UHGV virus genome: UHGV-0240317
Origin: a virus
Length of the DNA stretch: 64,000 bases
Reading direction: 5' to 3' (one strand)
In this document: one piece after another, positions 539 through 48,381 of the stretch
How positions within the stretch are numbered: position 1 is the first letter of the stretch
Layout of the letters: each line of letters starts with the position of its first letter
Made by a program: the position numbers and the translations under genes
The notes under the pieces: generated by a model
The model's input: only the letters and a program-made list of their open reading frames with translations
Database searches by the model: none
Told to the model about the DNA's origin: nothing

Positions 539-1917
539 TTAAAGCAAAGACTTACCCAGACTTCAAAGAGTTTGTGAAGGGTTTCATTGCAAATGTAAAG
601 GCTGGTAAGAGATATGATTTTAGAACATATCAAGAGGCTATTTTACCACTCACCTATAGCTCGTATTGGCCTGAAGCTGATATTGCAGAAGTTGAGAAGT
701 TTGACTACAAACCAGACTACAAAGTCCCATTTAGTGATGAGTTGCTTTACAGCGTTGGCGCTCAAATGAGAACTTCTGACTTCTTCATGGACTTACAATA
801 TGCAATTATCAATGGTAAAGACGTTGATACTGTTTATTGTGAATGGCTGGCAAGAGTTAAACCGTTCTCAATGTTGAATGCTAAGTTGAAGGATGCTATC
901 AAGCCACCATCAATCACTCAGCAACCAACAAATCAAACAGTAAATGAAGGTGGCACACTTACCCTAAGCGTTATTGCAACCAATGCCACTGGCTATCAAT
1001 GGAAAAAGGATGGTGAGGATATCACTAGTGCCACATCTGCAACCTACACAAAACAGTCTGTAGCACCTTCTGATGCTGGTTCTTATACTTGTGTTGTGTC
1101 TGGAGAGGCTGGGACAAGTGTTACCTCAGATGCGGCAACAGTTACTGTCAACGCACTGCCTGTGATTACACAGCAACCTTCTAGCCAGACCATCAATGAG
1201 GGTGGAAACATCAGCTTGGAAGTGACTGCAACAGGTGCAACGGGTTACCAGTGGAAGAAAGATGGCTCTGACATTCCTTCGGCTACAGAGGCTACCTATA
1301 GCAAGTCTGGTGCGCTGCCAGCAGATGCAGGTTCATACACTTGCGTTGTAACAGGTGCAGGTGGTTCTGTAACATCTAATGCTGCAACGGTTACTGTGAA
1401 TGCACTTCCTGTCATCACTCAACAGCCAACTGCAAAAACAGTTAATGAGGGTGGCACACTGACACTTGACATCGTTGCAACAGGTGCAACAGGCTACCAG
1501 TGGAGCAAAGATAATGTAAGTATTGGTGGAGCAAACTCTGCAACCTTTACCAAAGCTGGTGTAACGCCTGCTGATGCTGGGTCTTACAAATGTACGGTGA
1601 CAGGTGCTGGTGGTGCAGTGGAATCTAATGCCGCTGTAGTAACTGTGAACACGCTTCCAGTAATTACTCAACAGCCAACCAATCAAGAAATCACTGAAGG
1701 TGAGACCTTAACGCTGAATGTTGTAGCAACAGGTGCAACAGGTTACCAGTGGAAGAAAGGTGAGGAAGACATTCTCGATGCAACTACTGCAACTTACACC
1801 AAAGAAGGTGCAACCGCTGCTGATGCAGGAAGCTACACCTGTGTAGTTACTGGTGCAGGTGGTTCTGTAACATCTAATGCAGCAACGGTTACTGTTAACC
1901 CAGCAGGAGGGGCATAA
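535..1917 (+). CDS. protein with unknown N-terminal domain followed by four tandem Ig-like (I-set-like) repeats
   Basis: four ~80 aa repeats each with PVITQQPT..NEGG..ATGATGYQWKKDG..AGSYTCVVTGAGGSVTSNAATVTVN. Confidence 0.8.
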   Translation: MIKAKTYPDFKEFVKGFIANVKAGKRYDFRTYQEAILPLTYSSYWPEADIAEVEKFDYKPDYKVPFSDELLYSVGAQMRTSDFFMDLQYAIINGKDVDTVYCEWLARVKPFSMLNAKLKDAIKPPSITQQPTNQTVNEGGTLTLSVIATNATGYQWKKDGEDITSATSATYTKQSVAPSDAGSYTCVVSGEAGTSVTSDAATVTVNALPVITQQPSSQTINEGGNISLEVTATGATGYQWKKDGSDIPSATEATYSKSGALPADAGSYTCVVTGAGGSVTSNAATVTVNALPVITQQPTAKTVNEGGTLTLDIVATGATGYQWSKDNVSIGGANSATFTKAGVTPADAGSYKCTVTGAGGAVESNAAVVTVNTLPVITQQPTNQEITEGETLTLNVVATGATGYQWKKGEEDILDATTATYTKEGATAADAGSYTCVVTGAGGSVTSNAATVTVNPAGGA

Positions 1918-2381
1918 TGCAACTCTCACAGAAAGGTTTAGAAGCTATTAAGTTCTTTGAAGGTCTTAAGTTAGAGGCTTACGAAGATTCTGCTGGAATC
2001 CCAACAATTGGGTATGGGACAATCCGTATTGGTGGTAAACCTGTTAAGATAGGTATGGAAATTACTGCTGAGCAAGCTGAACAGTATCTTCTCGCAGATG
2101 TTGAAAAGTTTGTTGCAGCAGTGAACAAAGCTATCAAGGTTCCAACTTCTCAGAATGAGTTCGATGCACTTGTAAGTGAAACATACAACATCGGTATCAC
2201 AGCTATGCAGGATTCTACATTTATCAAGCGCCACAATGCTGGTAATAAGGTAGGTTGTGCAGAAGCTATGCAGTGGTGGAACAAGGTTACAGTCAAAGGT
2301 AAGAAGGTCACTTCAAACGGACTGAAAAACAGACGTAGAATGGAAGCTGACATTTATCTTGACAGTGTATATCCAAAGTAA
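1917..2381 (+). CDS. endolysin, GH24 (T4 lysozyme-like) muramidase
   Basis: EGLKLEAYEDSAGIPTIGYGT aligns with T4 lysozyme [21 protein letters not shown] (catalytic Glu/Asp/Thr); 154 aa. Confidence 0.9.
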   Translation: MQLSQKGLEAIKFFEGLKLEAYEDSAGIPTIGYGTIRIGGKPVKIGMEITAEQAEQYLLADVEKFVAAVNKAIKVPTSQNEFDALVSETYNIGITAMQDSTFIKRHNAGNKVGCAEAMQWWNKVTVKGKKVTSNGLKNRRRMEADIYLDSVYPK

Positions 2382-2389
2382 TATCTTCA

Positions 2390-2417
2390 TAGGCTCCTTC
2401 GGGAGCCTTTTTATTTT
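2390..2417 (+). terminator. rho-independent terminator
   Basis: hairpin AGGCTCC-ttcg-GGAGCCT followed by T-run. Confidence 0.7.
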
Positions 2418-2431
2418 CTAAGGAGAAAACT

Positions 2432-2830
2432 ATGAAACTTTGGGCTAGTGACTTTGGAACTTTTAAGTACACTCGTGATGGTTCAATGGTGAGGATTATT
2501 GGCAGCCAGATTGTAGTAAGTGGTGATGAGGTTTGTACAAAGTTCACTGTAGAGTTAGCTGAGCTATCGCCTATTACCCGTTCTAAAAATGGGTTTTTCA
2601 GGTTCGAGATTTACAAAGTAGATGAGTACGGTCGGTTCAACCCTCTTGGGGAAAGTGGATTAGACATTATTTCTGAACACCCATTGACAGCAGAGCAATT
2701 GTCGGGTTATTATAAAACTCTACTTGAAAGAGAGTTAGCAACCCATGAGTGTGAAGCAAAATATCATATAGAGCGTTGCGAAACTCTCAAAGAAAAGATA
2801 AAACTAGCAGAGAGAGGTGATTATGAGTAA
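2432..2830 (+). CDS. hypothetical protein
   Basis: ORF with AGGAG RBS upstream; operon context. Confidence 0.6.
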   Translation: MKLWASDFGTFKYTRDGSMVRIIGSQIVVSGDEVCTKFTVELAELSPITRSKNGFFRFEIYKVDEYGRFNPLGESGLDIISEHPLTAEQLSGYYKTLLERELATHECEAKYHIERCETLKEKIKLAERGDYE

Positions 2831-26964: not shown

Positions 26965-27308
26965 TTCGTATCTCTCTCAACCTTTTCACAAAAGGTTTTA
27001 AGTTCTTCTTCAGTGACACCAACAATATTGTCGCCGACGTTTAAATTTGTTTTGTAGAACATTGTGTAGTTACCTTTACCGACAACTTCAAATGCTCCAG
27101 CCTTCTCAATCTCTGCTAAGGCTTCCATTCCAACATTACCGAAAAGGAAGTTTGTATACTTTCTCCATTCATCAAGTAGCTCGGTCTTAACTTTATAAGT
27201 ACCCAATAAAGCACTGTTAAAAGAAAGAACCATTACCTCACCTTTTCCGTAACCCACTTTACGACGAGACTTACTCGGCTCTCCACTGACAATCACCTTG
27301 CCACCCAT
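26931..27308 (-). CDS. hypothetical protein
   Basis: start moved to internal ATG with GGAGAAAAG RBS to limit overlap with nrdG. Confidence 0.45.
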   Translation of the reverse strand: MGGKVIVSGEPSKSRRKVGYGKGEVMVLSFNSALLGTYKVKTELLDEWRKYTNFLFGNVGMEALAEIEKAGAFEVVGKGNYTMFYKTNLNVGDNIVGVTEEELKTFCEKVERDTKWDSGTVLNQK

Positions 27309-27756
27309 ACTCTTTTCTCCAGAGGTTTTGGTTATCAGAACCACGATATGGTTTAACTGTTGGTTTAGATGAATCATACTTACCATCAATCACCACGTCA
27401 ACATATTTCATTACATCTAGGTGAATTTTTTCGTGTAACTGAAAACCTGTCCAAAGCCATATAGACTTTTCTGGATAAACAGTTTTAATACGCTTGCATA
27501 TGTTGGTGACCTCTTGAATGTTTCTGTCATCCAGAGGTTCTCCACCAAGTATTGACAGCCCACTGACGGCATTATCATCCATTAACTTAATGATGCCATA
27601 AAGGTTTGCATAAGTGAACTCTTTACCAGCATTAAACTTCCAAGACTCCCTGTTAAAGCAGCCTTCACAGTGATGCTTACAACCAGCTACGAAGAGGCTT
27701 ACACGAACCCCTTCACCATTAGCTGTGTCAAATGGTCGAATCTCCATGTAATTCAT
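27271..27756 (-). CDS. nrdG: anaerobic ribonucleotide reductase activating protein
   Basis: radical-SAM CKHHCEGC motif; ~160 aa; next to nrdD. Confidence 0.85.
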   Translation of the reverse strand: MNYMEIRPFDTANGEGVRVSLFVAGCKHHCEGCFNRESWKFNAGKEFTYANLYGIIKLMDDNAVSGLSILGGEPLDDRNIQEVTNICKRIKTVYPEKSIWLWTGFQLHEKIHLDVMKYVDVVIDGKYDSSKPTVKPYRGSDNQNLWRKEYGWQGDCQWRAE

Positions 27757-28654: not shown

Positions 28655-28807
28655 TTTAACTTACCTTTCAATTCGCAATAAGAGAGTCATAAAAAGAACC
28701 CTAGTAAGACAGAACCTATGAACAACCCAATAATACTCTCTGCCATATCTAACATCCAATAAAAAGGTGATGTAAGCCTATCAAGACTCACACCACCATG
28801 TCAAGTT

Positions 28808-29755
28808 TTACATAGAAACCCTATCCTTAATTTCTGCCATCTTAGCGTCATTCATTCGAGACTGACCTTTAATTTTTGTGAATGACAAGTACCCGCACAC
28901 CCTGTTAATCACAGAGATATCGTGTGAATGGCAAACCTCACACTCTTCAACATCAGCCTTTGGTCTGTTACCACAATGTTCACAGATTGCTAAGTCAAAG
29001 TTAAGTCCCTGATAGAAACCTTTCAACATCCCTCTTGTAATACAACTTTTAAGTGCTGATAAGTTTTCTGGATTAGCTACCCTTACATACTGGATTCTGC
29101 CGCCTCTACAGATATGGAAGAAGGGTTCTTCTAAGTCCTGCTTCTCAAATGGTGAGATGTTTGCTGCAACATTCATATGGAAACTGTTTGTGAAGTATTC
29201 CTTGTCAGAAACACCTTTAATAATCCCAAACATCTCTCTGAACTGTTTTAGCTGAGTTCCGCAAAGTGATTCTGCTGGAGTACCATAGACGGCATATAAG
29301 AAGCCATCTTCATTTTTAAACTCTTCGGTTTTCATGTTGATGTATGCCAGAACATCATATGCAAAGCTATAGTTTCCAACTTCATGAAGTCGTTTACCTT
29401 CAGCAAGAACAGACAACTCATCAAGCGCAGTAACACCAAAAGAAGCTGTGAAGGACTTCACAATATCCCAACCAACCTTGTCAGTAGGCTTCTTAGTTCC
29501 TTTGTACAGACCACCTTGTGTAAATGCAAGAGGGTTAGAACTTGCTGGCATATTAGCAATCATTTCATAGCGTTTCTTGTGGAAACTACGAATCATCTCT
29601 AGGTACTTATCAAGCTCTTTCCAGAAATCTAAACCATTCTCTTTAGAGTACTGGTAAATCATCGGTAAGTTCAAAGATACAGCACCAATGTTTGCACGAC
29701 CTACATAAAACTCTTCACCATATTCGTTATGGTATGGTGATAAAAATGCTCTACA
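28808..29755 (-). CDS. nrdD: anaerobic ribonucleoside-triphosphate reductase, exon 2
   Basis: begins CRAFLSPY..., matching T4 NrdD ...SPMG|CRSFL; C-terminal Zn site CEHCG..CEVC and glycyl-radical RVCGYL. Confidence 0.85.
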   Translation of the reverse strand, partial: CRAFLSPYHNEYGEEFYVGRANIGAVSLNLPMIYQYSKENGLDFWKELDKYLEMIRSFHKKRYEMIANMPASSNPLAFTQGGLYKGTKKPTDKVGWDIVKSFTASFGVTALDELSVLAEGKRLHEVGNYSFAYDVLAYINMKTEEFKNEDGFLYAVYGTPAESLCGTQLKQFREMFGIIKGVSDKEYFTNSFHMNVAANISPFEKQDLEEPFFHICRGGRIQYVRVANPENLSALKSCITRGMLKGFYQGLNFDLAICEHCGNRPKADVEECEVCHSHDISVINRVCGYLSFTKIKGQSRMNDAKMAEIKDRVSM

Positions 29756-30497
29756 CTTGTTGTTCAGGTAAGTTCGCTAAGCTTACCCCGCTTTATTCAA
29801 GCTGCTTACTGTCGCCAGTAAGTCCAGACTATATCTTCTACTTATTTCTAAGTAGCGTACCATTTCGAGTCGCTTGACCCTACACCGCTACATTCATCAC
29901 GGTTAGTCGTTCGGCATTTAGATGTATTCAAACTCATATTCGAAGTTATTATGCTCTTTTACACCCTTCAATATTGAAGAGATGGTCTTGCGATTGTGTC
30001 CAAGTATATTGGATAACTCTCGTATTGACTTAGTAACAATAACTTCCTTTGTCACTTTGTGTGTGGCTTTCACGGCATATGAACGCTTGTGGAACTTGTA
30101 GCACCCGTTCTCATAACCCTCTTTAGCATTCTCAGAATGAGTACCCCATTCTAAGTTGGATGCGTGGTTATTTAGTTTGTTATCGTCCTTATGTTTTACA
30201 ATTGGAAGATTATTTGGGTTAGGTACATATTTCTCAGCAACTAACCTGTGGACATACATGTCACGATTCTTCTTACCGTAAAACCTCACTTTCATATACC
30301 CAGTGTTGGATTTCCACTGCGTAAGCTCTACACCATTTTCCCTAAAGACTTTTCTATCTTCAGTGACGTGATAGTTTGGCATGTAAGACTCCTATGTTGT
30401 ATAGTTTCTTACATCGTACATCATTTAGCACAGGATTGTCTACATCTGTAGAGTTTCCCTGTTTAGGCACGTTTTAGATGAGCTATAGAGCTTGTTA
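29756..30497 (-). mobile_element. group I intron in nrdD carrying an HNH endonuclease ORF
   Basis: exon 1 ends with U, intron ends with G, S-like element GAAGATATAGTCTGG; boundaries inferred. Confidence 0.75.
29918..30382 (-). CDS. intron-encoded HNH homing endonuclease
   Basis: HRLVAEKYVPNPNNLPIVKHKDDNKLNNHASNLEWGTHSEN HNH motif. Confidence 0.85.
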   Translation of the reverse strand: MPNYHVTEDRKVFRENGVELTQWKSNTGYMKVRFYGKKNRDMYVHRLVAEKYVPNPNNLPIVKHKDDNKLNNHASNLEWGTHSENAKEGYENGCYKFHKRSYAVKATHKVTKEVIVTKSIRELSNILGHNRKTISSILKGVKEHNNFEYEFEYI

Positions 30498-31694
30498 ACC
30501 CATCGGTGAAATAACCTTACCAGAACGCTCAAAAGCCTCTGCTACAGCACCATGACCAGATACACTTAAGAAGTCTGGATACATTGCTTTAGAGCAACAC
30601 TCAATAGCTTTACTGTACAGGTGACTTTGACAGATATTTTCATCATGTCTCTTCTGGTCATAAATATAAACCAGTTTAGGGAATACAACAGGTTTTTTGC
30701 TCTTGCCTTGTCCATTCATACGAACATCTAGGAGAGTACTTGCAATCATGTATTGTAGTCGATTATCCTCATTAGACATATCTGAGTCAAGTAAACCAAA
30801 TGTTAAAGTTGTGAATGCAAAATCACCACGGCTACAAGGTACGGTATTTAGTTTCATCTCAAGTGACTGAAAACCTTGAGTCAGTTCAATTTGTAACTGC
30901 TCCATTACATAATTGTGGTAATGCTCTTTAGGAATACCATAAGATGATGCTTTCTCAGCATGATAGCGTAGAGACTTCTTAGCATACGGTACAAGTACCT
31001 TATCAATCTCTGCTAAAGTAAAACCACCAAATTGCTGTGCAGTTGCTGAAAGTACTACGTCACCAATAACCTGCAACGCTGACAGTACAGATTTAGGTTC
31101 ACAGTACTCAATGCCGGACATTTCAAAGCCACCTTTTAGTACTTTACCAATGTCAAACAGGCAACAGTTAATACCACCAAAAATCAGGTCTCTCAAATCG
31201 TGGATATAGATAAAGCCTTTCTCAATGGCTTCAAGTTCCTCTGGTGTTAGATGATACTGTTTAAAGATTTCTTTAGTCAGGTAACCACGGATAATTGAAC
31301 CTTTCGTAGAAATTAAACTGCTGTCAAAGTTAGCATTTTCACGGTCACCTAAGAAGAGTGTATCTTTGGTCTTCTGGTAAAGCTCATCCCAATTTTGAGC
31401 AACTTCTTTACGGTAATTTCTATATGTTGAGTAAGACTCATAAATCTCGTGATTGACTTCTGCCAAAGCACCCTCAACAATACTGTGAATATCATTTACA
31501 GAAATTAGCAAATTATTCTGCTTAGTGGACTTTACCAGAATCCTCATAAATGCTGACTCAAGAGCTTGGGTAACATCTGGTGGAAGTTCTTTATATCCAA
31601 CCCTGTTAGCTGACTTTGTGACTGCTGCTAAAACTTTTTTGATATCAGGTTCTTCAAGTGAGCCATTCTTTTTAATAATCTGTACTTTGTTCAT
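30498..31694 (-). CDS. nrdD: anaerobic ribonucleoside-triphosphate reductase, exon 1
   Basis: GGINCCLFDIGKVL and ...AMYPDFLSVSGHG...KVISPMG align with T4 NrdD. Confidence 0.85.
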
Positions 31695-31713: not shown

Positions 31714-31736
31714 AAAAAGGTCTCCGAAGAGACCCT
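31714..31736 (-). terminator. rho-independent terminator
   Basis: GGTCTC-cgaa-GAGACC with T-run on the minus strand. Confidence 0.6.
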
Positions 31737-31949: not shown

Positions 31950-32184
31950 TATTCACCTCTGCCATAAAATTCTGTAGCGTACCAACAGGTTTTAGGTTTT
32001 GTCCATCAGTTTTCATGATGAATGGCATCTGACGAACTGGCATCTGTGCAATATCCATCAGGTCTGATAGTTCATAGTCCTGCCCTAACATTCTCACAAC
32101 ATGGTCAATACCACGAGCTTTTGCAAAATTCTTTGCAGTCTCACACTGAGGGCATCCAGTTTTGGAGTAAATTACATAAGTCAT
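31942..32184 (-). CDS. glutaredoxin/NrdH-like redoxin
   Basis: CPQC active-site motif in an ~80 aa protein next to nrdB. Confidence 0.75.
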   Translation of the reverse strand: MTYVIYSKTGCPQCETAKNFAKARGIDHVVRMLGQDYELSDLMDIAQMPVRQMPFIMKTDGQNLKPVGTLQNFMAEVNNA

Positions 32185-33257
32185 TAAGGAACCTCTAAAA
32201 ATCCACTATTCAAATCATCTACAACAGTATTCAACAGGTACGCACCGTTCTGTTGCTCCTGATTAGCATTCTGCTCTTTATCAATTTCCATCTTCTTAAT
32301 CATGTACTTCAAAGGTGGTTCTTTAGGAGCTACAAAATCTCTGGGAATGCCAAACATATCATACAGTGGTGCAGCATTATAGTAAACCCACTCATGAAGA
32401 AGCTTTGTATTTAAGCCAACTACAGCACGTCCTTCGGAGAAGATATAATACGACCATTTCTCTTCACTTTCAACTACTTCATCTAAGATTACTTTAATCT
32501 CTGGAAGAATTTGTTGAAAAGCTTTCTGCCATTCATCATCTCTTAAAGTTTCTTTTAAAACTTCAATATCAATTTTAGTGTGAAGGATTTCGTCAAGCAT
32601 AATTTTCTGAACAGCTTGAGCAATACCCTGAAATTTATCTTGAGCATCAAGTGCAAAAGTACATGCAAAGGATGCCATAAAAGATATGCCTTCAAGTGCA
32701 GTCACTGCAAATAGACCTTTCAGAATCACTTTATGGAAGTGTAAAGGGTCTTTGTCCAGAAGTGAATCACGGACATAACTCAGTCGATAGTTTATACCTT
32801 CATCCAGTAATTCTTCAAGAACACGATTCACAGTTTTTAATCGGTCTTGTACAGCAATGTTCTGGTTAATCTCATCTAAGATTGTTTCAGGATTTTTAAT
32901 ACACTGTCTTACAATCTCCGAGTAAGTAAGAGCATGTAGGTTTTCAATCTCAGACTGCTTCATAATTGCAGTTGCATAGATGTCATCAGAGATGAATGGT
33001 GCAAAAGCAAACGCTAAACTCTTAGCAACTTGGGTATCTGCTTCCCACTGCCACTTAAGAATCTCAAGCATTACACCTGACATTGATGCTGGTACACTCT
33101 CAAAATCAAGACGTGATTGTTCAAAAGGGAACTCATCTTCTGACCAGTCTTGTGCTTTTTGTTGTTTATAGAGTTCAAAGATTTTTGGGTAGTGCTTGTT
33201 AAGTGAGTCAAATGTCTTTCTCTCACCACCTAAAAAGATTGGGTGCTGGTTAATCAT
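32184..33257 (-). CDS. nrdB: ribonucleotide reductase class I small subunit
   Basis: ~357 aa, adjacent to nrdA; start taken at MINQHP with AAGGAG RBS. Confidence 0.75.
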   Translation of the reverse strand: MINQHPIFLGGERKTFDSLNKHYPKIFELYKQQKAQDWSEDEFPFEQSRLDFESVPASMSGVMLEILKWQWEADTQVAKSLAFAFAPFISDDIYATAIMKQSEIENLHALTYSEIVRQCIKNPETILDEINQNIAVQDRLKTVNRVLEELLDEGINYRLSYVRDSLLDKDPLHFHKVILKGLFAVTALEGISFMASFACTFALDAQDKFQGIAQAVQKIMLDEILHTKIDIEVLKETLRDDEWQKAFQQILPEIKVILDEVVESEEKWSYYIFSEGRAVVGLNTKLLHEWVYYNAAPLYDMFGIPRDFVAPKEPPLKYMIKKMEIDKEQNANQEQQNGAYLLNTVVDDLNSGFLEVP

Positions 33258-33595
33258 AGCGTGATTTCTCCTTTCTTTATCATTTCTAAGGCTTGTTTTC
33301 TGTCTAAAACTTCCCAATTTTCTTTGTTAAACATCTCATAAGGTCTTGCATAGATTTTACCATCTGCTGTAGAGATGTAAGAGATACCAGCAACCCATGA
33401 GTCATCATTTTGTTTTATCATCATGTCTGTGCTACTCACATAGTACATCGTTTTCCGAGGCTTGTGGAGCAAGTATATTGGTCGCTCATGTTTTTCTATT
33501 AAATCTTTCATGGTCTCTCCAAAGTTATTTTTAGAGGGTCTTTTACGACCCTCATAGTTATTAAAACTAAACACCACAACCCTCGCAATAGGCAT
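33254..33595 (-). CDS. hypothetical protein
   Basis: ORF track; overlaps nrdA stop and nrdB start. Confidence 0.5.
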   Translation of the reverse strand: MPIARVVVFSFNNYEGRKRPSKNNFGETMKDLIEKHERPIYLLHKPRKTMYYVSSTDMMIKQNDDSWVAGISYISTADGKIYARPYEMFNKENWEVLDRKQALEMIKKGEITL

Positions 33596-44619: not shown

Positions 44620-44876
44620 GTAAGCCTCTTTTAAGTAACTATTAAGTTTTAATCTTTTATCTTAACGTATTCTATACGTTATACTTTAAAGCTTTTTAAA
44701 AGCTATTAAATAATCTTTTAAGAGTTTTAAAGTATCTGTATAGTTAAACTGTTAAGTAACCTTTTAAGTAAAAACCCACTTCGCAAAGATTAACACCTTG
44801 TCAAGTGCATTGTCAACTTGCTTTTTATAATTTTTTGCAGTAATGTATGAGGTTAATGATTTTAGAGGGAGTAAAA

Positions 44877-47019
44877 ATGGAAAACGTAGATTTTAAAAAC
44901 TTACATTTAGTTGGTGATACAGAAACTGATGGTTTACTCCTTGAGTTCACTAAAGTGCACGTAATGGCTTTCGCAGACTATAAATCTGACGATGAAGAGC
45001 CACCTGTATGGGTCTTTACAGATGAGCCTATCCTCGGTCACAAGTATACCAAGTACATTAAGGGTGGCTTACGTGAAGGTGTTGAATTTGCGTTAAAGGC
45101 AAAACGTCTTTGCATCCATAATGGTCTCGGTTATGACTGGTGGGTTTTTAATCACATTGCACCTGATTTATGGAACTTTGATAATCCAAAGTGTAAACCG
45201 TGGAGTAATTTCTTTCAGGATTCTCTTATCCAGTCTCGTGTTCAGTGGATGGATAGACCAACCCCAAAAGGTTATAAGGGTGCTCATGGCTTGGCTGCAT
45301 GGGGTGCTCGTGTTGGTGTCCGTAAACCAGAGATTGAACATTGGGGTGTGTGGAATGCAGAAATCTTCACTCGTGTTGTAGAAGATATCCGTATTAACGC
45401 CAAAACTAAACGGGCACTTGATAATGAATATCTCAAGCTTAAGAAGTGTGGCATAGATACTTATGAAACCTACATGCGAGCTAAAGAAACATCTTTTTGG
45501 ATGAGTCAACAAGCTATCAATGGCTGGAAAGCTGATAAAGAGCTTATGGAGTTCCATGTAAAGGAACTTGACAAGTTGACTAATGAGCTTGCTTCAGAGG
45601 TTGAACCACATCTACCTCCAACTATTAAGACCAAAGGTAAAGTCACTGGAGAAGAGTTTGCAAAAGCTTGGAATGAGTATGTTGAAACATTTGGTCATGC
45701 AGATGGACTGAAGAGAATTACCAAGTACCCTAAGACAAAGTATCGTCAGCAGGTACGTAATGGTGAGATGCAGACTTATGAAATCAAACCATTTGGTAAG
45801 CCAACTACAAAGATTTTTAACATTGAAAAGAGAAATTGCTATACACCAACCAACTCTGTAACTGGTGAAGAGTACAAGGAAGGTTTTGTAGCAATGAAGG
45901 ATGCTCGTGCAATTTGCAATGAGTTGAATGCAAAGATTGGTAAGAAATGCAAAGACTGGAAGCCAGCAAAAACAGTTAAGACTGTGAAGTACTATAACAG
46001 CCATGTTGTTAACCACTTTGAGCTTGAGTCAAGTCGCTACACAGGTTTGATTGATGCACCATATACACCAATCGAGTTCGAAGTTTCTCGTATGACTCAG
46101 GTAGCAGTTGTTAAAGACTACTTGAAATCAGTTGGTTGGATTCCAGATGACTGGAACTATAAGAAAGACTCTGATGGTCGTCCTGTTAAGGTTTGTCGCT
46201 TCAAAGACAACAAAAAGATGATTACAAAGCATCCTAAATGGCAGGAAATGGTTGAACGGTGTGGTTTGAGCTATGTTGAACATGAAGGCGTCCAGTACAT
46301 TGAGCATAACTGGTCTGTGAAGAAATACACAGATTTGCTTGAGCCTTGCTTAATCCGTACTTCACCAAAACTTACTGAATCATCTTATGATACGATTGAA
46401 GGTGAGCTTGGACAGAAGATTGCTAAGTACTATACTTTGATGCACCGACGCAGAACTATTGAGAACTCAAAGGATGATGAGAAAGGTTGGTTAAACCAGA
46501 TTCGTCCTGATGGTCGCCTTAGTGCTGGTGCAATGGTGTTTGGTACTTCAACTGGACGTATGACACAATATGGTATTGTAAACGTACCGTCTGGTGCTGC
46601 TGTCTATGGAGCACCTATGAGGGAGGTGTGGATTTGTGAAGAGGGGACTAACATTGTTTCTGTTGACCAGAACTCAGCCCAGCTTGTTTTACTGTGTAAC
46701 TTTATGGGTGATAAAGACTTCACCAAAGCAGTAACTGAAGGTAAAGAGTCAGTAGAGTTCACTAAGCAAGATGATGGTAGATACTACTGTAAACATCTTG
46801 ACAAGTATCTTAACCCAGAAACTGACAAGTATCTGCGTTATGATGCTGAAAATGACCTCTATGAAGTCTACACAGGGACTGATGCGCATACACTGAACAG
46901 TATTTACTTTGGTCTTAACAAGGAAGAAGATATTGTCCGTTGTAGGGAGACACAGGGTGAGGAACTTCTCCACGAGATTACAAAAGGTCGTAAGAAAGCC
47001 AAAAATGGCATTTATGCGT
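44877..47019 (+). CDS. DNA polymerase family A, exon 1
   Basis: start at MENVDF with GAGGGAG RBS; exo I DTETDGL; motif A VSVDQNSAQL; first half of motif B RKKAKNGIYA. Confidence 0.85.
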
Positions 47020-47287
47020 CAGTGGCGCATGTAAAACGTTGTGAATTGCTGGAAGCCTAAGTCTGTAAAGATATGGTAATCAGCAGCGAAGCCTCTTGAG
47101 AGGAACGTTCAGAGACTATCGAAAAGCATACTTAATGTATGAACTGAGTAGAGTAGGGTGGTAAGCTAATGACCATACCCAAGTGCAACGGTAGCATCAC
47201 TGCTACGTGATATAGTCCGACACTCCGTAGAAATGCGGAGAAGTTCATAAGAGAACTGGTACACCTTGCGAGTGTATTGACCAGATG
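47020..47287 (+). mobile_element. ORF-less group I intron in the DNA polymerase gene
   Basis: Q-like AATCAGCAG, R-like GTTCAGAGACTA, S-like GATATAGTCC; stops in the polymerase frame; boundaries inferred. Confidence 0.75.
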
Positions 47288-47844
47288 TATTGTTCGGTGC
47301 AGGTGATGAGAAGTTTGCCAAAACCATTAAGGCAGCTTCTACAGAGGAAGGTGCATTGACTAAGCAGACCTACTATATGCGTCTACCAAAGATTAAGAAA
47401 CTACTTGATAGCTTAGAAGCCGATTTTAAGGCGTCTAAAAAGGCTCTGGAAGAGGTTTTTGGGAAGAATTCTTCAATTGCTAAAGGTGGTTATATCAGAG
47501 TCGCTGGAGCATGGATATGGTGCAAATCTCCACATAAACTACTGAACTACCTCCTGATGAGTTCGGAAGCACAGATTCAGAATGAGGCCATCAACCTAGC
47601 AGCAAGAAAAGCCTGTGAAGATGGCCTGACAAAACTGAATGCTCGAAAACCAGCTATCGGAGCAAGGTTACTTCTGGCATATCACGATGAAAATAGTTGG
47701 GAATGTCCAGAGGGTATGACACAGGATATGAAAGCAATTGCTGACTGGATGTATGGACAAGCTTCAAAAAACTTAGGTTTGAGGAAAGAAACACTTGTAA
47801 CTGGTACAGCAAAGGTTGGTAAGAGCTGGTATGAGGTGCATTGA
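47288..47844 (+). CDS. DNA polymerase family A, exon 2
   Basis: continues motif B as LFGAGDEK (T7 pol FLYGAGDEK); carries the C-terminal polymerase domain. Confidence 0.8.
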
Positions 47845-48381
47845 TTGATGGATTTTATTTCACAAAAACGTTTAAAGGAGCTACTACACTATGACCCCGA
47901 AACAGGGGTCTTTACTTGGCTTCGTAGAGAAGGTAAATCAAGAGCTGTTAGTGTTTTTAACAGTAACTATGCAGGAAAGGTAGCAGGTAATGTTCAGACA
48001 GATTCAACTGGTCATAAACAGATTAGTATCTATTTTGACAAGAAAGCACATAAAGCACACAGACTCGCATGGCTTTATGTATATGGCAAGATGCCAAAAG
48101 GTATCATTGACCATATCAACGGAGACTCTCTTGACAACAGGATTGCAAACTTAAGGGAAGCAGATGACTTCCAAAGTGCTTGGAATAAAGGTAAACTAGC
48201 CACCAATAAATCTGGGTACAAGGGTGTAAGCCTTAAGAAGAAGTCTGGTAAGTGGGTCGCACAGATAAGTTATAAAGGTAAGAAGATGTTTTTAGGTTAC
48301 CATGACACCCCTGAAGAAGCCCATAAAGCTTACTGTGAAGCTGCTATGAAACTCCACGGAGAGTTTGCAAAACTAAGTTGA
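47845..48381 (+). CDS. HNH-AP2 homing endonuclease (free-standing)
   Basis: HNH motif HRLAWLYVYG..IDHINGDSLDNRIANL plus AP2-like YKGVS..KWVAQI..GYHDTPEEA. Confidence 0.85.
   Translation: MMDFISQKRLKELLHYDPETGVFTWLRREGKSRAVSVFNSNYAGKVAGNVQTDSTGHKQISIYFDKKAHKAHRLAWLYVYGKMPKGIIDHINGDSLDNRIANLREADDFQSAWNKGKLATNKSGYKGVSLKKKSGKWVAQISYKGKKMFLGYHDTPEEAHKAYCEAAMKLHGEFAKLS

What the first reader, a model, noticed from the sequence alone, without database searches (positions are those of the whole stretch)
28808..31694. nrdD interrupted by a group I intron carrying an HNH endonuclease, inserted at the conserved SPMG|CR site
The two nrdD ORFs join in frame so that exon 1 ends ...KVISPMG (last nucleotide U) and exon 2 begins CRAFLSPY..., recreating the conserved NrdD motif. 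The 742 nt intervening sequence (29756-30497) ends in G, has a group I S-like element and encodes a 154 aa HNH endonuclease. This is a classic mobile intron in an essential nucleotide-metabolism gene; the endonuclease type and exact insertion site are worth comparing with the T4 nrdD intron.
Basis: partly seen in the sequence, partly recalled or inferred. Interest (0 to 1): 0.5.

Follow-up and report, generated by a model that had tools for sequence, protein, structure and literature searches.

The report
Self-splicing mobile intron in phage nrdD
The anaerobic ribonucleotide reductase gene of this Felix O1-type phage is interrupted, just before the codon for its catalytic cysteine, by an intact self-splicing group I intron carrying a homing-endonuclease gene; the element is real, but related phage genomes already annotate it.

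Summary
On the minus strand, nrdD exon 1 (31694..30498) and exon 2 (29755..28808) are separated by exactly 742 nt (30497..29756). Felix O1 and other intron-less relatives lack precisely this stretch. The spliced ORF is 714 aa and about 97% identical to Felix O1 NrdD.

The insert is a complete group IA-type ribozyme with P1, P3-P9.2, P7.1/P7.2 and P10, and no P2. All 68 modelled pairs are intact, and 31 show compensatory changes across 9 homologues. A 154-aa I-HmuI-like HNH endonuclease ORF sits in the P6a loop.

The splice site lies between Gly399 and Cys400, equivalent to T4 NrdD G289|C290. The T4 nrdD intron is inserted about 110 codons upstream (T4 numbering) and carries the GIY-YIG enzyme I-TevII in a different loop. 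Its ribozyme core is nevertheless homologous and has the same internal guide sequence, GCUCAU.

Phage JSE, rV5-like phages, phi92-like phages and Vibrio phages carry the same intron at the same site. Felixounaviruses are polymorphic: intron with endonuclease, two independent endonuclease deletions, and intron-less. A roughly 55-nt exon-2 haplotype is linked to intron presence.

Two GenBank records annotate the gene as a join, and the Meda genome announcement implies an intron. No splicing or cleavage experiment was found. The finding is ordinary and already known.

The parts
30498..31694 (-). nrdD exon 1 (399 codons: ATP-cone plus the N-terminal half of the NrdD barrel), ending ...SPMG with last nucleotide U
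   Evidence: ORF. Pfam ATP-cone and NRDD profile positions 1-250 of 562. Collinear with intron-less Felix O1 nrdD.
29756..30497 (-). Group I intron, 742 nt (IA-type: P1, P3-P9, P7.1, P7.2, P9.1, P9.2, P10; no P2). Begins with an in-frame UAA and ends with the terminal G (omega-G, the 3'-terminal guanosine) at 29756.
   Evidence: Exactly absent from intron-less alleles. RF00028 hits. Covariation. 68 of 68 modelled pairs intact in the window copy.
30477..30491 (-). Internal guide. GCUCUAUA (30491..30484) pairs with the first 8 nt of exon 2, UGUAGAGC, to form P10. GCUCAUC (30483..30477) pairs with the last 7 nt of exon 1, GAUGGGU, to form P1, with a U.G wobble at the splice site.
   Evidence: Read directly. 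P1 is 100% paired in 9 homologues. P10 covaries with Vibrio phage F97, where GAUUGGCA pairs with UGCCGAUC.
30417..30471 (-). 5' half of the catalytic core: P3 5' strand, P4, P5, P4', P6 and P6a 5' strands
   Evidence: 81% identical over 62 nt to the T4-type nrdD intron.
29918..30382 (-). Homing-endonuclease ORF (154 aa plus stop) in the P6a loop. It is an I-HmuI/I-BasI-type HNH enzyme. Its last two sense codons (UAC AUC) form the 3' strand of P6a, and the stop codon UAA lies just 3' of it.
   Evidence: Pfam HNH_3 1.2e-10. PHROG 59 at 1.6e-40. PDB 1U3E (I-HmuI) E = 2.3e-8 over residues 5-152. H64, N72, N76 and N85 are invariant in the alignment with I-HmuI and I-BasI. pN/pS is 0.07-0.11 in five of six pairs; the sixth differs by a single synonymous site.
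30380..30414 (-). Hairpin upstream of the endonuclease ORF. It includes the Shine-Dalgarno AGGAG (30393..30389) and pairs the AU of the AUG start codon.
   Evidence: MFE -10.9 kcal/mol, z = -2.35. Analogous SD-occluding hairpins occur in the rV5-like and Vibrio orthologues. A regulatory role is inferred, not shown.
29766..29926 (-). 3' half of the core: P6a' and P6', J6/7, P7 (GACUA/UAGUC), P7.1, P7.2, P3', P8 (GAAA loop), J8/7, P9 (GCGA loop), P9.1, P9.2
   Evidence: 41 of 42 nt identical to the T4-type nrdD intron across P6'-P7-P7.1.
28808..29755 (-). nrdD exon 2 (315 codons plus stop), starting with the Cys400 codon (equivalent to T4 NrdD C290). Contains the glycyl-radical domain.
   Evidence: Pfam NRDD profile positions 264-560 of 562 and Gly_radical. 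In the spliced T4-like protein the Cys of SPMGC is residue 290 and the Gly of RTCGY is residue 580. The first in-frame start codon is only at 29674, 27 codons downstream of the junction.
29700..29755 (-). Exon-2 haplotype linked to intron presence: a putative co-conversion or immunity tract
   Evidence: Six intron-carrying alleles share TGT, GCA/G, TTT, TCA... Six intron-less alleles share TGC, GCT/C, mostly TTC, TCT... There is no such linkage in the last 150 nt of exon 1.
27271..27756 (-). nrdG (NrdD activase, radical SAM), downstream context
   Evidence: Pfam Fer4_12 at 3.5e-43 and Radical_SAM.

Best explanation
This is a mobile, self-splicing group I intron of the phage IA family with P7.1/P7.2. 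It sits in the nrdD gene of a Felixounavirus, between the codons for Gly399 and the catalytic Cys400.

How it works:
- The nrdD pre-mRNA folds so that the intron's guide sequence aligns both exons. GCUCAUC pairs with exon 1 to form P1, with U.G at the splice site. GCUCUAUA pairs with exon 2 to form P10.
- Exogenous guanosine bound at P7 attacks the 5' splice site. The freed 3'-OH of U then attacks after the terminal G (29756). This ligates ...SPMG to CRAFLSPY... and restores a full-length 714-aa NrdD.
- The in-frame UAA at intron positions 1-3 stops ribosomes from running into the ribozyme.
- The P6a loop carries a 154-aa I-HmuI/I-BasI-type HNH endonuclease. Its start site is partly buried in a hairpin.
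- By analogy with its characterised relatives, the endonuclease most likely nicks intron-less nrdD DNA a few nucleotides into exon 2 during co-infection. Recombinational repair then copies the intron, plus roughly 55 nt of exon 2, into the recipient. This is homing.

What is shown and what is inferred:
- Shown here: the anatomy, the conservation and covariation of the ribozyme, the exact presence/absence polymorphism, purifying selection on the endonuclease, and the linkage to an exon-2 haplotype.
- Inferred: actual splicing, nickase activity, the cleavage position, and regulation by the hairpin.
For: - Exact 742-nt presence/absence at one site among closely related phages.
- The spliced ORF is 714 aa and about 97% identical to intron-less Felix O1 NrdD. 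The Pfam NRDD profile continues across the junction, positions 1-250 then 264-560.
- RF00028 scores 33.1 bits with the ORF in place. Natural ORF-deleted copies score 55.4-70.4 bits, above the 50-bit gathering score.
- A 13-helix model is 98.2% paired. 31 of 68 pairs carry compensatory changes, and 0 of 500 shuffles reach the observed value. Slid controls pair at 33-41%. The window copy has 68 of 68 pairs intact.
- P10 covaries with the exon-2 sequence in the Vibrio phage F97 orthologue.
- Without splicing, neither fragment could encode Cys400 to residue 426. The first in-frame start codon in exon 2 is 27 codons downstream of the junction.
- The endonuclease is homologous along its full length to I-HmuI (1U3E, E = 2.3e-8). 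The catalytic His and three Asn are invariant. pN/pS is 0.07-0.11.
- The same intron, site and endonuclease occur in JSE, rV5-like phages, phi92-like phages and Vibrio phages.
- Two independent endonuclease-gene deletions leave the ribozyme intact. This is the decay stage expected in the homing cycle.
- The linked haplotype is confined to exon 2. [quoted passage not shown]
Against: - No experimental evidence of splicing or cleavage was found for this intron in any phage (paper searches).
- The window copy itself scores below Rfam's gathering threshold. This is explained by the 465-nt ORF in the loop.
- The residue before the catalytic His is Lys, where I-HmuI has Asp74. From memory, Asp74 is a metal ligand. 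I-BasI, an active nickase, has Asn there. Activity is therefore plausible but unproven.
- The exon-2 haplotype could partly reflect selection for P10 pairing, or shared ancestry, rather than co-conversion.
- Only 9 sequences from about 5 lineages support the covariation. The loop was replaced by an artificial GAAA to build the alignment.
Confidence: 0.93

Rival explanations
1. Genes-in-pieces. A free-standing HNH endonuclease gene has split nrdD into two separately translated polypeptides that reassemble into an active enzyme without RNA splicing. The precedent is Aeromonas phage Aeh1 nrdA split by mobE.
For: Most GenBank records annotate two separate nrdD CDSs plus an HNH gene. Published descriptions call it a 'split gene' interrupted by a homing endonuclease. 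The precedent is described in PMC3653736.
Against: The intervening DNA is a complete, covarying group I ribozyme whose guide sequences pair with both exon ends. Exon 2 has no start codon for its first 27 codons, so the catalytic Cys400 region would be lost. Copies that have lost the endonuclease gene keep the 292-316-nt ribozyme. That retention makes no sense for a simple endonuclease insertion.
Confidence: 0.03
2. A decayed intron. The ribozyme no longer splices efficiently, and nrdD is effectively a pseudogene in this phage, tolerated because the class Ia enzyme NrdAB suffices.
For: nrdAB genes are present next door; nrdB is the ORF at 32184..33317. No splicing data exist. An unusual Lys precedes the catalytic His of the endonuclease.
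Against: All 68 modelled pairs are intact, and the conserved J8/7 and P7 sequences are identical to those of the T4-type nrdD intron, whose mobility is documented in PMC2988022. The non-ORF part of the intron differs by only 1-8 of 277 nt between phages whose endonuclease ORFs differ at up to 35% of synonymous sites. The exons stay open and about 97% identical in protein to the intron-less allele despite many synonymous changes.
Confidence: 0.03
3. An intein or a translational bypass element rather than an RNA intron.
For: None beyond the fact that a conserved enzyme motif is interrupted.
Against: An in-frame UAA immediately follows exon 1. The HNH ORF has its own Shine-Dalgarno sequence and AUG, and it is separated from both exons by non-coding ribozyme sequence. 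No intein motifs were found in Pfam.
Confidence: 0.005

Closest known systems
The same intron in other Felixounavirus genomes (e.g. JohannRWettstein/Bas63 MZ501086, Meda MH586731, UAB_Phi87, FSL SP-010)
   Same: Identical site and 742-nt length, 91-96% nucleotide identity. Bas63 and Meda annotate the nrdD CDS as a two-part join. The Meda announcement reports the HNH interruption and calls the DNA polymerase intron 'another intron'.
   Different: Nothing of substance. This is the same element.
Orthologous nrdD 'MG|CR' introns in phage JSE (Krischvirus), rV5-like Vequintavirus SYGMH1/'A138', phi92-like Justusliebigvirus PD06/phiWec187, and Vibrio phages F97/F92
   Same: Same insertion point before the catalytic Cys codon. 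Same helix set and guide sequence GCUCAU. A homologous HNH endonuclease (39-53% identity) in the same P6a loop.
   Different: The cores are only about 67-70% identical. The P10 guide is adapted to each host's exon 2. PD06 has lost most of the endonuclease gene. F97 has a second intron further upstream in nrdD.
Phage T4 nrdD (sunY) intron with I-TevII
   Same: Same host gene. A homologous IA core with no P2 and the same guide sequence GCUCAU. 41 of 42 nt are identical across P6'-P7-P7.1, 81% across P3-P6, and about 72% overall. That is as close as the same-site orthologues are to each other.
   Different: Inserted at E179/Y180 in phase 1, about 110 codons upstream of the site used here (the G289|C290 equivalent, phase 0). 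It carries the GIY-YIG enzyme I-TevII 3' of P9 instead of an HNH enzyme in L6a (PMC2988022). The intron is 1045 nt long rather than 742.
I-HmuI (SPO1), I-HmuII (SP82) and I-BasI (Bastille): intron-encoded HNH nicking endonucleases
   Same: Full-length sequence homology with conserved His and Asn catalytic residues. Similar size (154 aa against 174 and 188 aa). Encoded in a phage group I intron.
   Different: Those enzymes sit in DNA polymerase introns of Gram-positive phages. Identity is only 27-32%. The residue before the catalytic His is K here, against D in I-HmuI and N in I-BasI. Nicking and target site are untested here.
Twort nrdE introns (I-TwoI) and SPbeta bnrdE/bnrdF introns
   Same: Group I introns, some carrying HNH endonucleases, inserted next to functionally critical residues of ribonucleotide reductase genes (PMC3653736).
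   Different: Class Ib genes, different insertion sites, and no detectable sequence relationship was tested here.

Membership tests
Group I intron (Rfam RF00028) | 5' exon ends in U, which forms a U.G wobble with the internal guide sequence (P1) | tested here: met
   Exon 1 ...GAUGGGU pairs with intron GCUCAUC (7 bp, U.G at the splice site). 100% paired in 9 homologues, and the outermost pair covaries GC/CG/UG.
Group I intron (Rfam RF00028) | Intron ends in G (omega-G), and the 3' exon pairs with the guide (P10) | tested here: met
   The last intron nucleotide is G at 29756. GCUCUAUA pairs with UGUAGAGC over 8 bp. F97 carries the compensating pair GAUUGGCA/UGCCGAUC.
Group I intron (Rfam RF00028) | Conserved core: P3-P8 with the P3/P7 pseudoknot, and the J8/7-P7 'S' sequence | tested here: met
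   All helices are present. 31 of 68 pairs carry compensatory changes. P7 GACUA/UAGUC and AAGAUAUAGUC are invariant.
Group I intron (Rfam RF00028) | Covariance-model score at or above the curated gathering threshold (50 bits) | tested here: inconclusive
   The window copy scores 33.1 bits, E = 8.4e-6, because of the 465-nt ORF in L6a. Natural ORF-deleted copies of the same intron score 55.4 (REP12), 60.4 (RPN213) and 70.4 (PD06) bits.
Group I intron (Rfam RF00028) | Guanosine-dependent self-splicing | not testable with these tools
   This needs in vitro transcription and splicing, or RT-PCR.
Subgroup IA (phage IA2-like) | Extra helices P7.1 and P7.2 between the P7 5' strand and the P3 3' strand, plus P9.1/P9.2 | tested here: met
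   P7.1 (29903..29884) and P7.2 (29880..29867) both carry compensatory changes, for example CCG/CGG changing to CUG/CAG in PD06. P9.1 and P9.2 covary. The assignment to IA2 rather than IA1 rests on homology to the T4 nrdD intron and was not tested independently.
I-HmuI-type HNH homing endonuclease | HNH (beta-beta-alpha-metal) motif with the catalytic His and conserved Asn residues | tested here: met
   Pfam HNH_3 at 1.2e-10. H64, N72, N76 and N85 are invariant in the alignment with I-HmuI and I-BasI. One caveat: K63 replaces I-HmuI D74.
I-HmuI-type HNH homing endonuclease | Three-part architecture: N-terminal beta-sheet DNA-binding region, HNH domain, C-terminal helix-turn-helix | tested here: inconclusive
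   The sequence alignment to 1U3E spans residues 5-152 of 154 against 14-169 of 174. No structure was predicted or compared.
I-HmuI-type HNH homing endonuclease | Site-specific single-strand nick near the intron insertion site | not testable with these tools
   Inferred from the relatives only (PMC3428280).
Mobile (homing) intron | Presence/absence polymorphism at an identical site among close relatives, on different exon backgrounds | tested here: met
   About 94 intron-carrying records, of which 61 have an endonuclease at least 90% identical, against roughly 120 intron-less records (estimated from an evenly spaced sample). LNA1, which carries the intron, shares an exon-1 haplotype with the intron-less phages bumzen and C600M2.
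Mobile (homing) intron | Co-conversion of flanking exon markers | tested here: inconclusive
   A roughly 55-nt exon-2 haplotype is almost perfectly linked to the intron in 6 against 6 alleles (one intron-less allele has TTT, and RPN213 reverts at the distal end). There is no linkage in exon 1. This is consistent with co-conversion, but it could also reflect P10 or immunity selection, or shared ancestry.
Mobile (homing) intron | Super-Mendelian inheritance in mixed infection | not testable with these tools
   This needs phage crosses.

The most novel reading that the evidence does not exclude
The 'MG|CR' nrdD intron and the T4 sunY intron may be sister copies of one ribozyme that moved between two sites of the same gene. 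Site choice would have been dictated by the unchanged guide sequence GCUCAU. T4's 5' exon ends AUGAGU and this one ends AUGGGU, and only 3 compatible hexamers exist in the 2145-nt mRNA. That pattern points to transposition by reverse splicing rather than by endonuclease-driven homing. Unrelated endonuclease genes would then have invaded different loops independently: GIY-YIG 3' of P9 in T4, and HNH in L6a here. If so, this would be a natural, datable example of ectopic group I intron transposition followed by independent endonuclease capture.
Probability: 0.3. Interest if true: 0.45.

Novelty: already known. Interest (0 to 1): 0.2.

Why it matters
For annotation, most Felixounavirus records, and the rV5-like, phi92-like, JSE and Vibrio phage records inspected, list two 'nrdD' fragments plus an HNH gene. 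They should carry a single joined CDS of 714 codons.

For biology, this is a clean natural series of the homing cycle within one phage genus: empty site, intron with endonuclease, and two independent endonuclease losses. The intron is inserted immediately 5' of the thiyl-radical cysteine codon. It therefore fits the known rule that phage introns target the most conserved, functionally critical codons.

The shared core and guide sequence with the T4 sunY intron at a different nrdD site give a modest but testable handle on how group I introns reach new sites. None of this would surprise a specialist.

Tried and rejected
- **Rfam on the window region alone.** It gave a sub-threshold hit of 33.1 bits. 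I did not take this as evidence against an intron, because natural ORF-less copies pass the threshold.
- **RNAalifold.** It cannot draw the P3/P7 pseudoknot, and it proposed a spurious 4-bp hairpin in J8/7-P7. I removed that hairpin and added P7 by hand before counting pairs.
- **MAFFT alignment.** It misaligned parts of P5 and P9.1 in the distant sequences. The few 'unpaired' cells in SYGMH1, A138, PD06, F97 and JK45 are alignment artefacts or gaps.
- **Sigma-70 promoter scan of the intron.** Ten sites were found against 9.3 expected by chance, so I make no claim of an internal promoter for the endonuclease.
- **Literature searches** for a description of this intron as a group I intron, for JSE nrdD, and for 'Cys290'. 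They found only annotation-level mentions. The catalytic role of T4 NrdD C290 and G580 therefore rests on my own knowledge of the T4 NrdD structural literature. Only the residue numbers were verified here.
- **Intein and split-gene readings** were considered and rejected (see rivals).
- **Not run because they would not change the verdict:** the large protein database searches, structure prediction of the endonuclease, and the metagenome and genome scans.
Full report
**What the window is.** The 2.9-kb region is 90-96% identical to dozens of Felix O1-like myoviruses (Ounavirinae, Felixounavirus) that infect Salmonella and E. coli. The gene lies on the minus strand. It is followed by nrdG (27756..27271) and preceded by nrdB and glutaredoxin ORFs.

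**Checking the observation.**
- Exon 1 is the ORF 31694..30498. It ends ...GKVISPMG (GGU) and runs straight into UAA.
- Reading on from 29755 gives UGU AGA GCA UUU UUA UCA CCA UAC = CRAFLSPY, and the frame continues to the stop at 28808.
- The two exons total 2145 nt and form one ORF of 714 codons. It matches the uninterrupted Felix O1 NrdD at 694 of 715 aligned positions.
- Pfam's NRDD profile is matched at positions 1-250 by exon 1 and 264-560 by exon 2. Exon 1 also has an ATP-cone and exon 2 a glycyl-radical domain.
- The intervening 742 nt (30497..29756) contain a 154-aa ORF (30382..29918) with an HNH_3 domain.

**Natural controls.** BLAST against 50,697 phage records shows three allele classes. 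Full-length alleles are 2887 bp. Alleles of 2461 bp have 85% coverage. Alleles of 2145 bp have 74% coverage.
- The alignment shows that Felix O1 lacks exactly the 742 nt (...CCGATGGGT|TGCAGAGC...).
- The 2461-bp class (REP12, EC6 and others) has an in-frame 426-nt deletion. It removes the body of the HNH ORF and leaves a 316-nt intron.
- A second, independent deletion in phage RPN213 removes the ribosome-binding site and start codon as well, leaving 292 nt.
- About 94 records carry the intron. Of these, 61 have an endonuclease at least 90% identical.
- Roughly 120 records are intron-less. This is an estimate from an evenly spaced sample of the ranking.

**The RNA.**
- Rfam's group I model scores the window copy at 33.1 bits (E = 8.4e-6), below the 50-bit gathering score.
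- The same intron with the ORF naturally deleted scores 55.4 (REP12), 60.4 (RPN213) and 70.4 bits (phi92-like PD06).
- I modelled the structure by hand and located each element:
  - P1: exon GAUGGGU with GCUCAUC, U.G at the splice site.
  - P10: GCUCUAUA with exon-2 UGUAGAGC, 8 bp.
  - No P2.
  - P3, P4, P5, P6 and P6a.
  - The P7 pseudoknot GACUA/UAGUC.
  - P7.1 and P7.2, the hallmark of subgroup IA.
  - P8 with a GAAA loop, J8/7 AAGAUA, and P9 with a GCGA loop.
  - P9.1 and P9.2, and a terminal G.
- To test the model I aligned nine cores, replacing the ORF-bearing loop with an artificial GAAA. The cores were four Felixounaviruses, two rV5-like phages, a phi92-like phage, Vibrio phage F97 and the T4-type nrdD intron of phage JK45.
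- RNAalifold recovered every nested helix on its own.
- With P7 added, 98.2% of cells are paired, against 33-41% when partners are slid by 1-3 columns. 31 of 68 pairs carry changes on both sides. None of 500 shuffles reaches the observed covariation.
- The window copy has all 68 pairs intact.
- P10 also covaries. F97 has GAUUGGCA opposite exon-2 UGCCGAUC.

**Why splicing is required.** In the exon-2 frame, the first possible start codon is the TTG at 29674, 27 codons beyond the junction. Without splicing, neither fragment would contain Cys400 and the following residues. In the spliced T4-like protein, the Cys of SPMGC is residue 290 and the Gly of RTCGY is residue 580. From my knowledge of T4 NrdD, these are the thiyl-radical cysteine and the glycyl-radical site. 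The intron therefore sits immediately 5' of the catalytic cysteine codon.

**The endonuclease.**
- The 154-aa protein matches PHROG 59 'HNH endonuclease' at 1.6e-40.
- Along almost its whole length it matches the crystal-structure sequence of I-HmuI (1U3E, E = 2.3e-8).
- In an alignment with I-HmuI, I-BasI and three orthologues, H64, N72, N76 and N85 are invariant.
- The residue before the catalytic His is Lys. It is Asp in I-HmuI and Asn in the active nickase I-BasI, so activity is plausible but unproven.
- Between Felixounavirus copies, pN/pS is 0.07-0.11 in five of six pairs, with pS up to 0.36; the sixth pair differs by a single synonymous site. The non-coding ribozyme parts differ at only 1-8 of 277 positions. 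Both the protein and the RNA are under purifying selection.
- The last two sense codons of the ORF form the 3' strand of P6a, and the stop codon lies just 3' of it.
- The Shine-Dalgarno sequence and start codon lie in a hairpin (z = -2.35). Analogous occluding hairpins occur in the rV5-like and Vibrio orthologues. This recalls the translational control of the T4 intron endonucleases, but it is an inference.

**Evidence for mobility.** In six intron-carrying and six intron-less alleles, the first ~55 nt of exon 2 form two haplotypes that are almost perfectly linked to intron presence. One haplotype reads TGT, GCA/G, TTT, TCA, TAC-CAT... The other reads TGC, GCT/C, mostly TTC, TCT, TAT-YTT... 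The last 150 nt of exon 1 show no such linkage. RPN213 carries the intron-type haplotype for only about 20 nt. LNA1, which carries the intron, shares a distinctive exon-1 haplotype with the intron-less phages bumzen and C600M2. The intron is therefore found on different genetic backgrounds. [quoted passage not shown]

**Comparison with T4 and others.**
- In T4-like phage JK45, the nrdD intron is 1045 nt long. It splits codon Y180 (..AYE|YEV..) and carries I-TevII downstream of P9. The SPMGC motif there is uninterrupted.
- The two ribozymes are nevertheless homologous. They share 41 of 42 nt across P6'-P7-P7.1, 81% over P3-P6, the same guide GCUCAU and the same lack of P2. Overall identity is about 72%. 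That is as high as between same-site orthologues, which share 67-70%.
- The same 'MG|CR' intron, with a homologous HNH gene in L6a, occurs in several lineages:
  - phage JSE (Krischvirus);
  - rV5-like Vequintavirus;
  - phi92-like Justusliebigvirus, where PD06 keeps only an endonuclease remnant;
  - Vibrio phages F97/F92.

**What was already known.**
- Felix O1 itself lacks introns (PMC3185647).
- The 'split nrdD interrupted by a homing endonuclease' was noted for UAB_Phi87 (PMC4837284). That paper credits the first report of the split to an earlier study of FSL SP phages (PMC3728262), whose searched text mentions homing endonucleases inserted into genes but does not name nrdD.
- The Meda genome announcement says that one HNH endonuclease interrupts the anaerobic reductase large subunit, and that 'another intron' lies in the DNA polymerase gene (PMC6486253).
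- The Meda and BASEL Bas63 GenBank records annotate nrdD as a two-part join. The BASEL paper says intron boundaries were set by comparative annotation.
- I found no paper that models the ribozyme, tests splicing or tests the endonuclease. The element is therefore known at annotation level only.

**Verdict.** This is a real and textbook-quality mobile group I intron. Novelty is low. The only mildly new angle is its sister relationship with the T4 sunY intron at a different site of the same gene, with an identical guide sequence. That is compatible with ectopic transposition by reverse splicing but does not prove it. Three IGS-compatible hexamers exist in the mRNA, and one of them is the junction.

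Noticed in passing
window 46957..47290 (+), within the DNA polymerase gene 44847..47844: A second group I intron: RF00028 at 62.3 bits, above the gathering score. It interrupts the family-A DNA polymerase near the ...KAKNGIYA / LFGAGDEKF motif. It has no ORF here and is about 268 nt long, because intron-less alleles are 833 nt against 1101 nt for the same interval. Some relatives (VpaE1, JH2, pEP20) carry a version about 530 nt longer, with an ORF annotated 'endonuclease VII'. The Meda announcement mentions this intron. I did not model its exact boundaries or structure.
   Followed up: partly
window 47845..48381 (+): A 178-aa ORF abuts the end of DNA polymerase exon 2. It has an HNH-like motif (HRLAWLYVYG...IDHINGDSLDNRIANLREA), so it is probably a free-standing homing endonuclease. 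It was not scanned against any family library.
   Followed up: no
window 29877..29921 (-); loci L005, L006, L008, L009: A 42-43-nt stretch of the intron (P6'-J6/7-P7-P7.1) is 95-98% identical in Tequatrovirus, Vequintavirus, 'Campylobacter' and Vibrio phage records, even though the rest of the introns share only about 70% identity. This is an unusually frozen ribozyme segment.
   Followed up: partly
window 29729..29734 (-), NrdD residues 407-408: Inside the intron-linked exon-2 haplotype there is one amino-acid difference. Five of six intron-carrying alleles have Tyr-His (TAC CAT). The intron-less alleles, and intron-carrying RPN213, have Tyr-Phe or Tyr-Leu (TAT TTT / TAT CTT). This may be a hitch-hiking or target-immunity substitution.
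   Followed up: no
L008 (Vibrio phage F97) 225..1383 and 1890..2643: The nrdD gene of this Vibrio phage appears to carry two endonuclease-containing insertions. A 309-aa HNH ORF lies further upstream, and the MG|CR intron with a 168-aa HNH lies downstream. Only the second was examined.
   Followed up: partly
L009 (MG065684 'Campylobacter phage A138') and MG065672 (A141): These records are named Campylobacter phages. A138 (UNVERIFIED) is classified under Vequintavirinae, and its nrdD region is nearly identical to that of the rV5-like coliphage examined (SYGMH1). The host label looks doubtful.
   Followed up: no
window 28766..28797 (-) and 31719..31734: Terminator-like hairpins flank nrdD on both sides. 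The phage Meda record annotates terminators at the equivalent positions. nrdD may therefore be a separate transcription unit.
   Followed up: no
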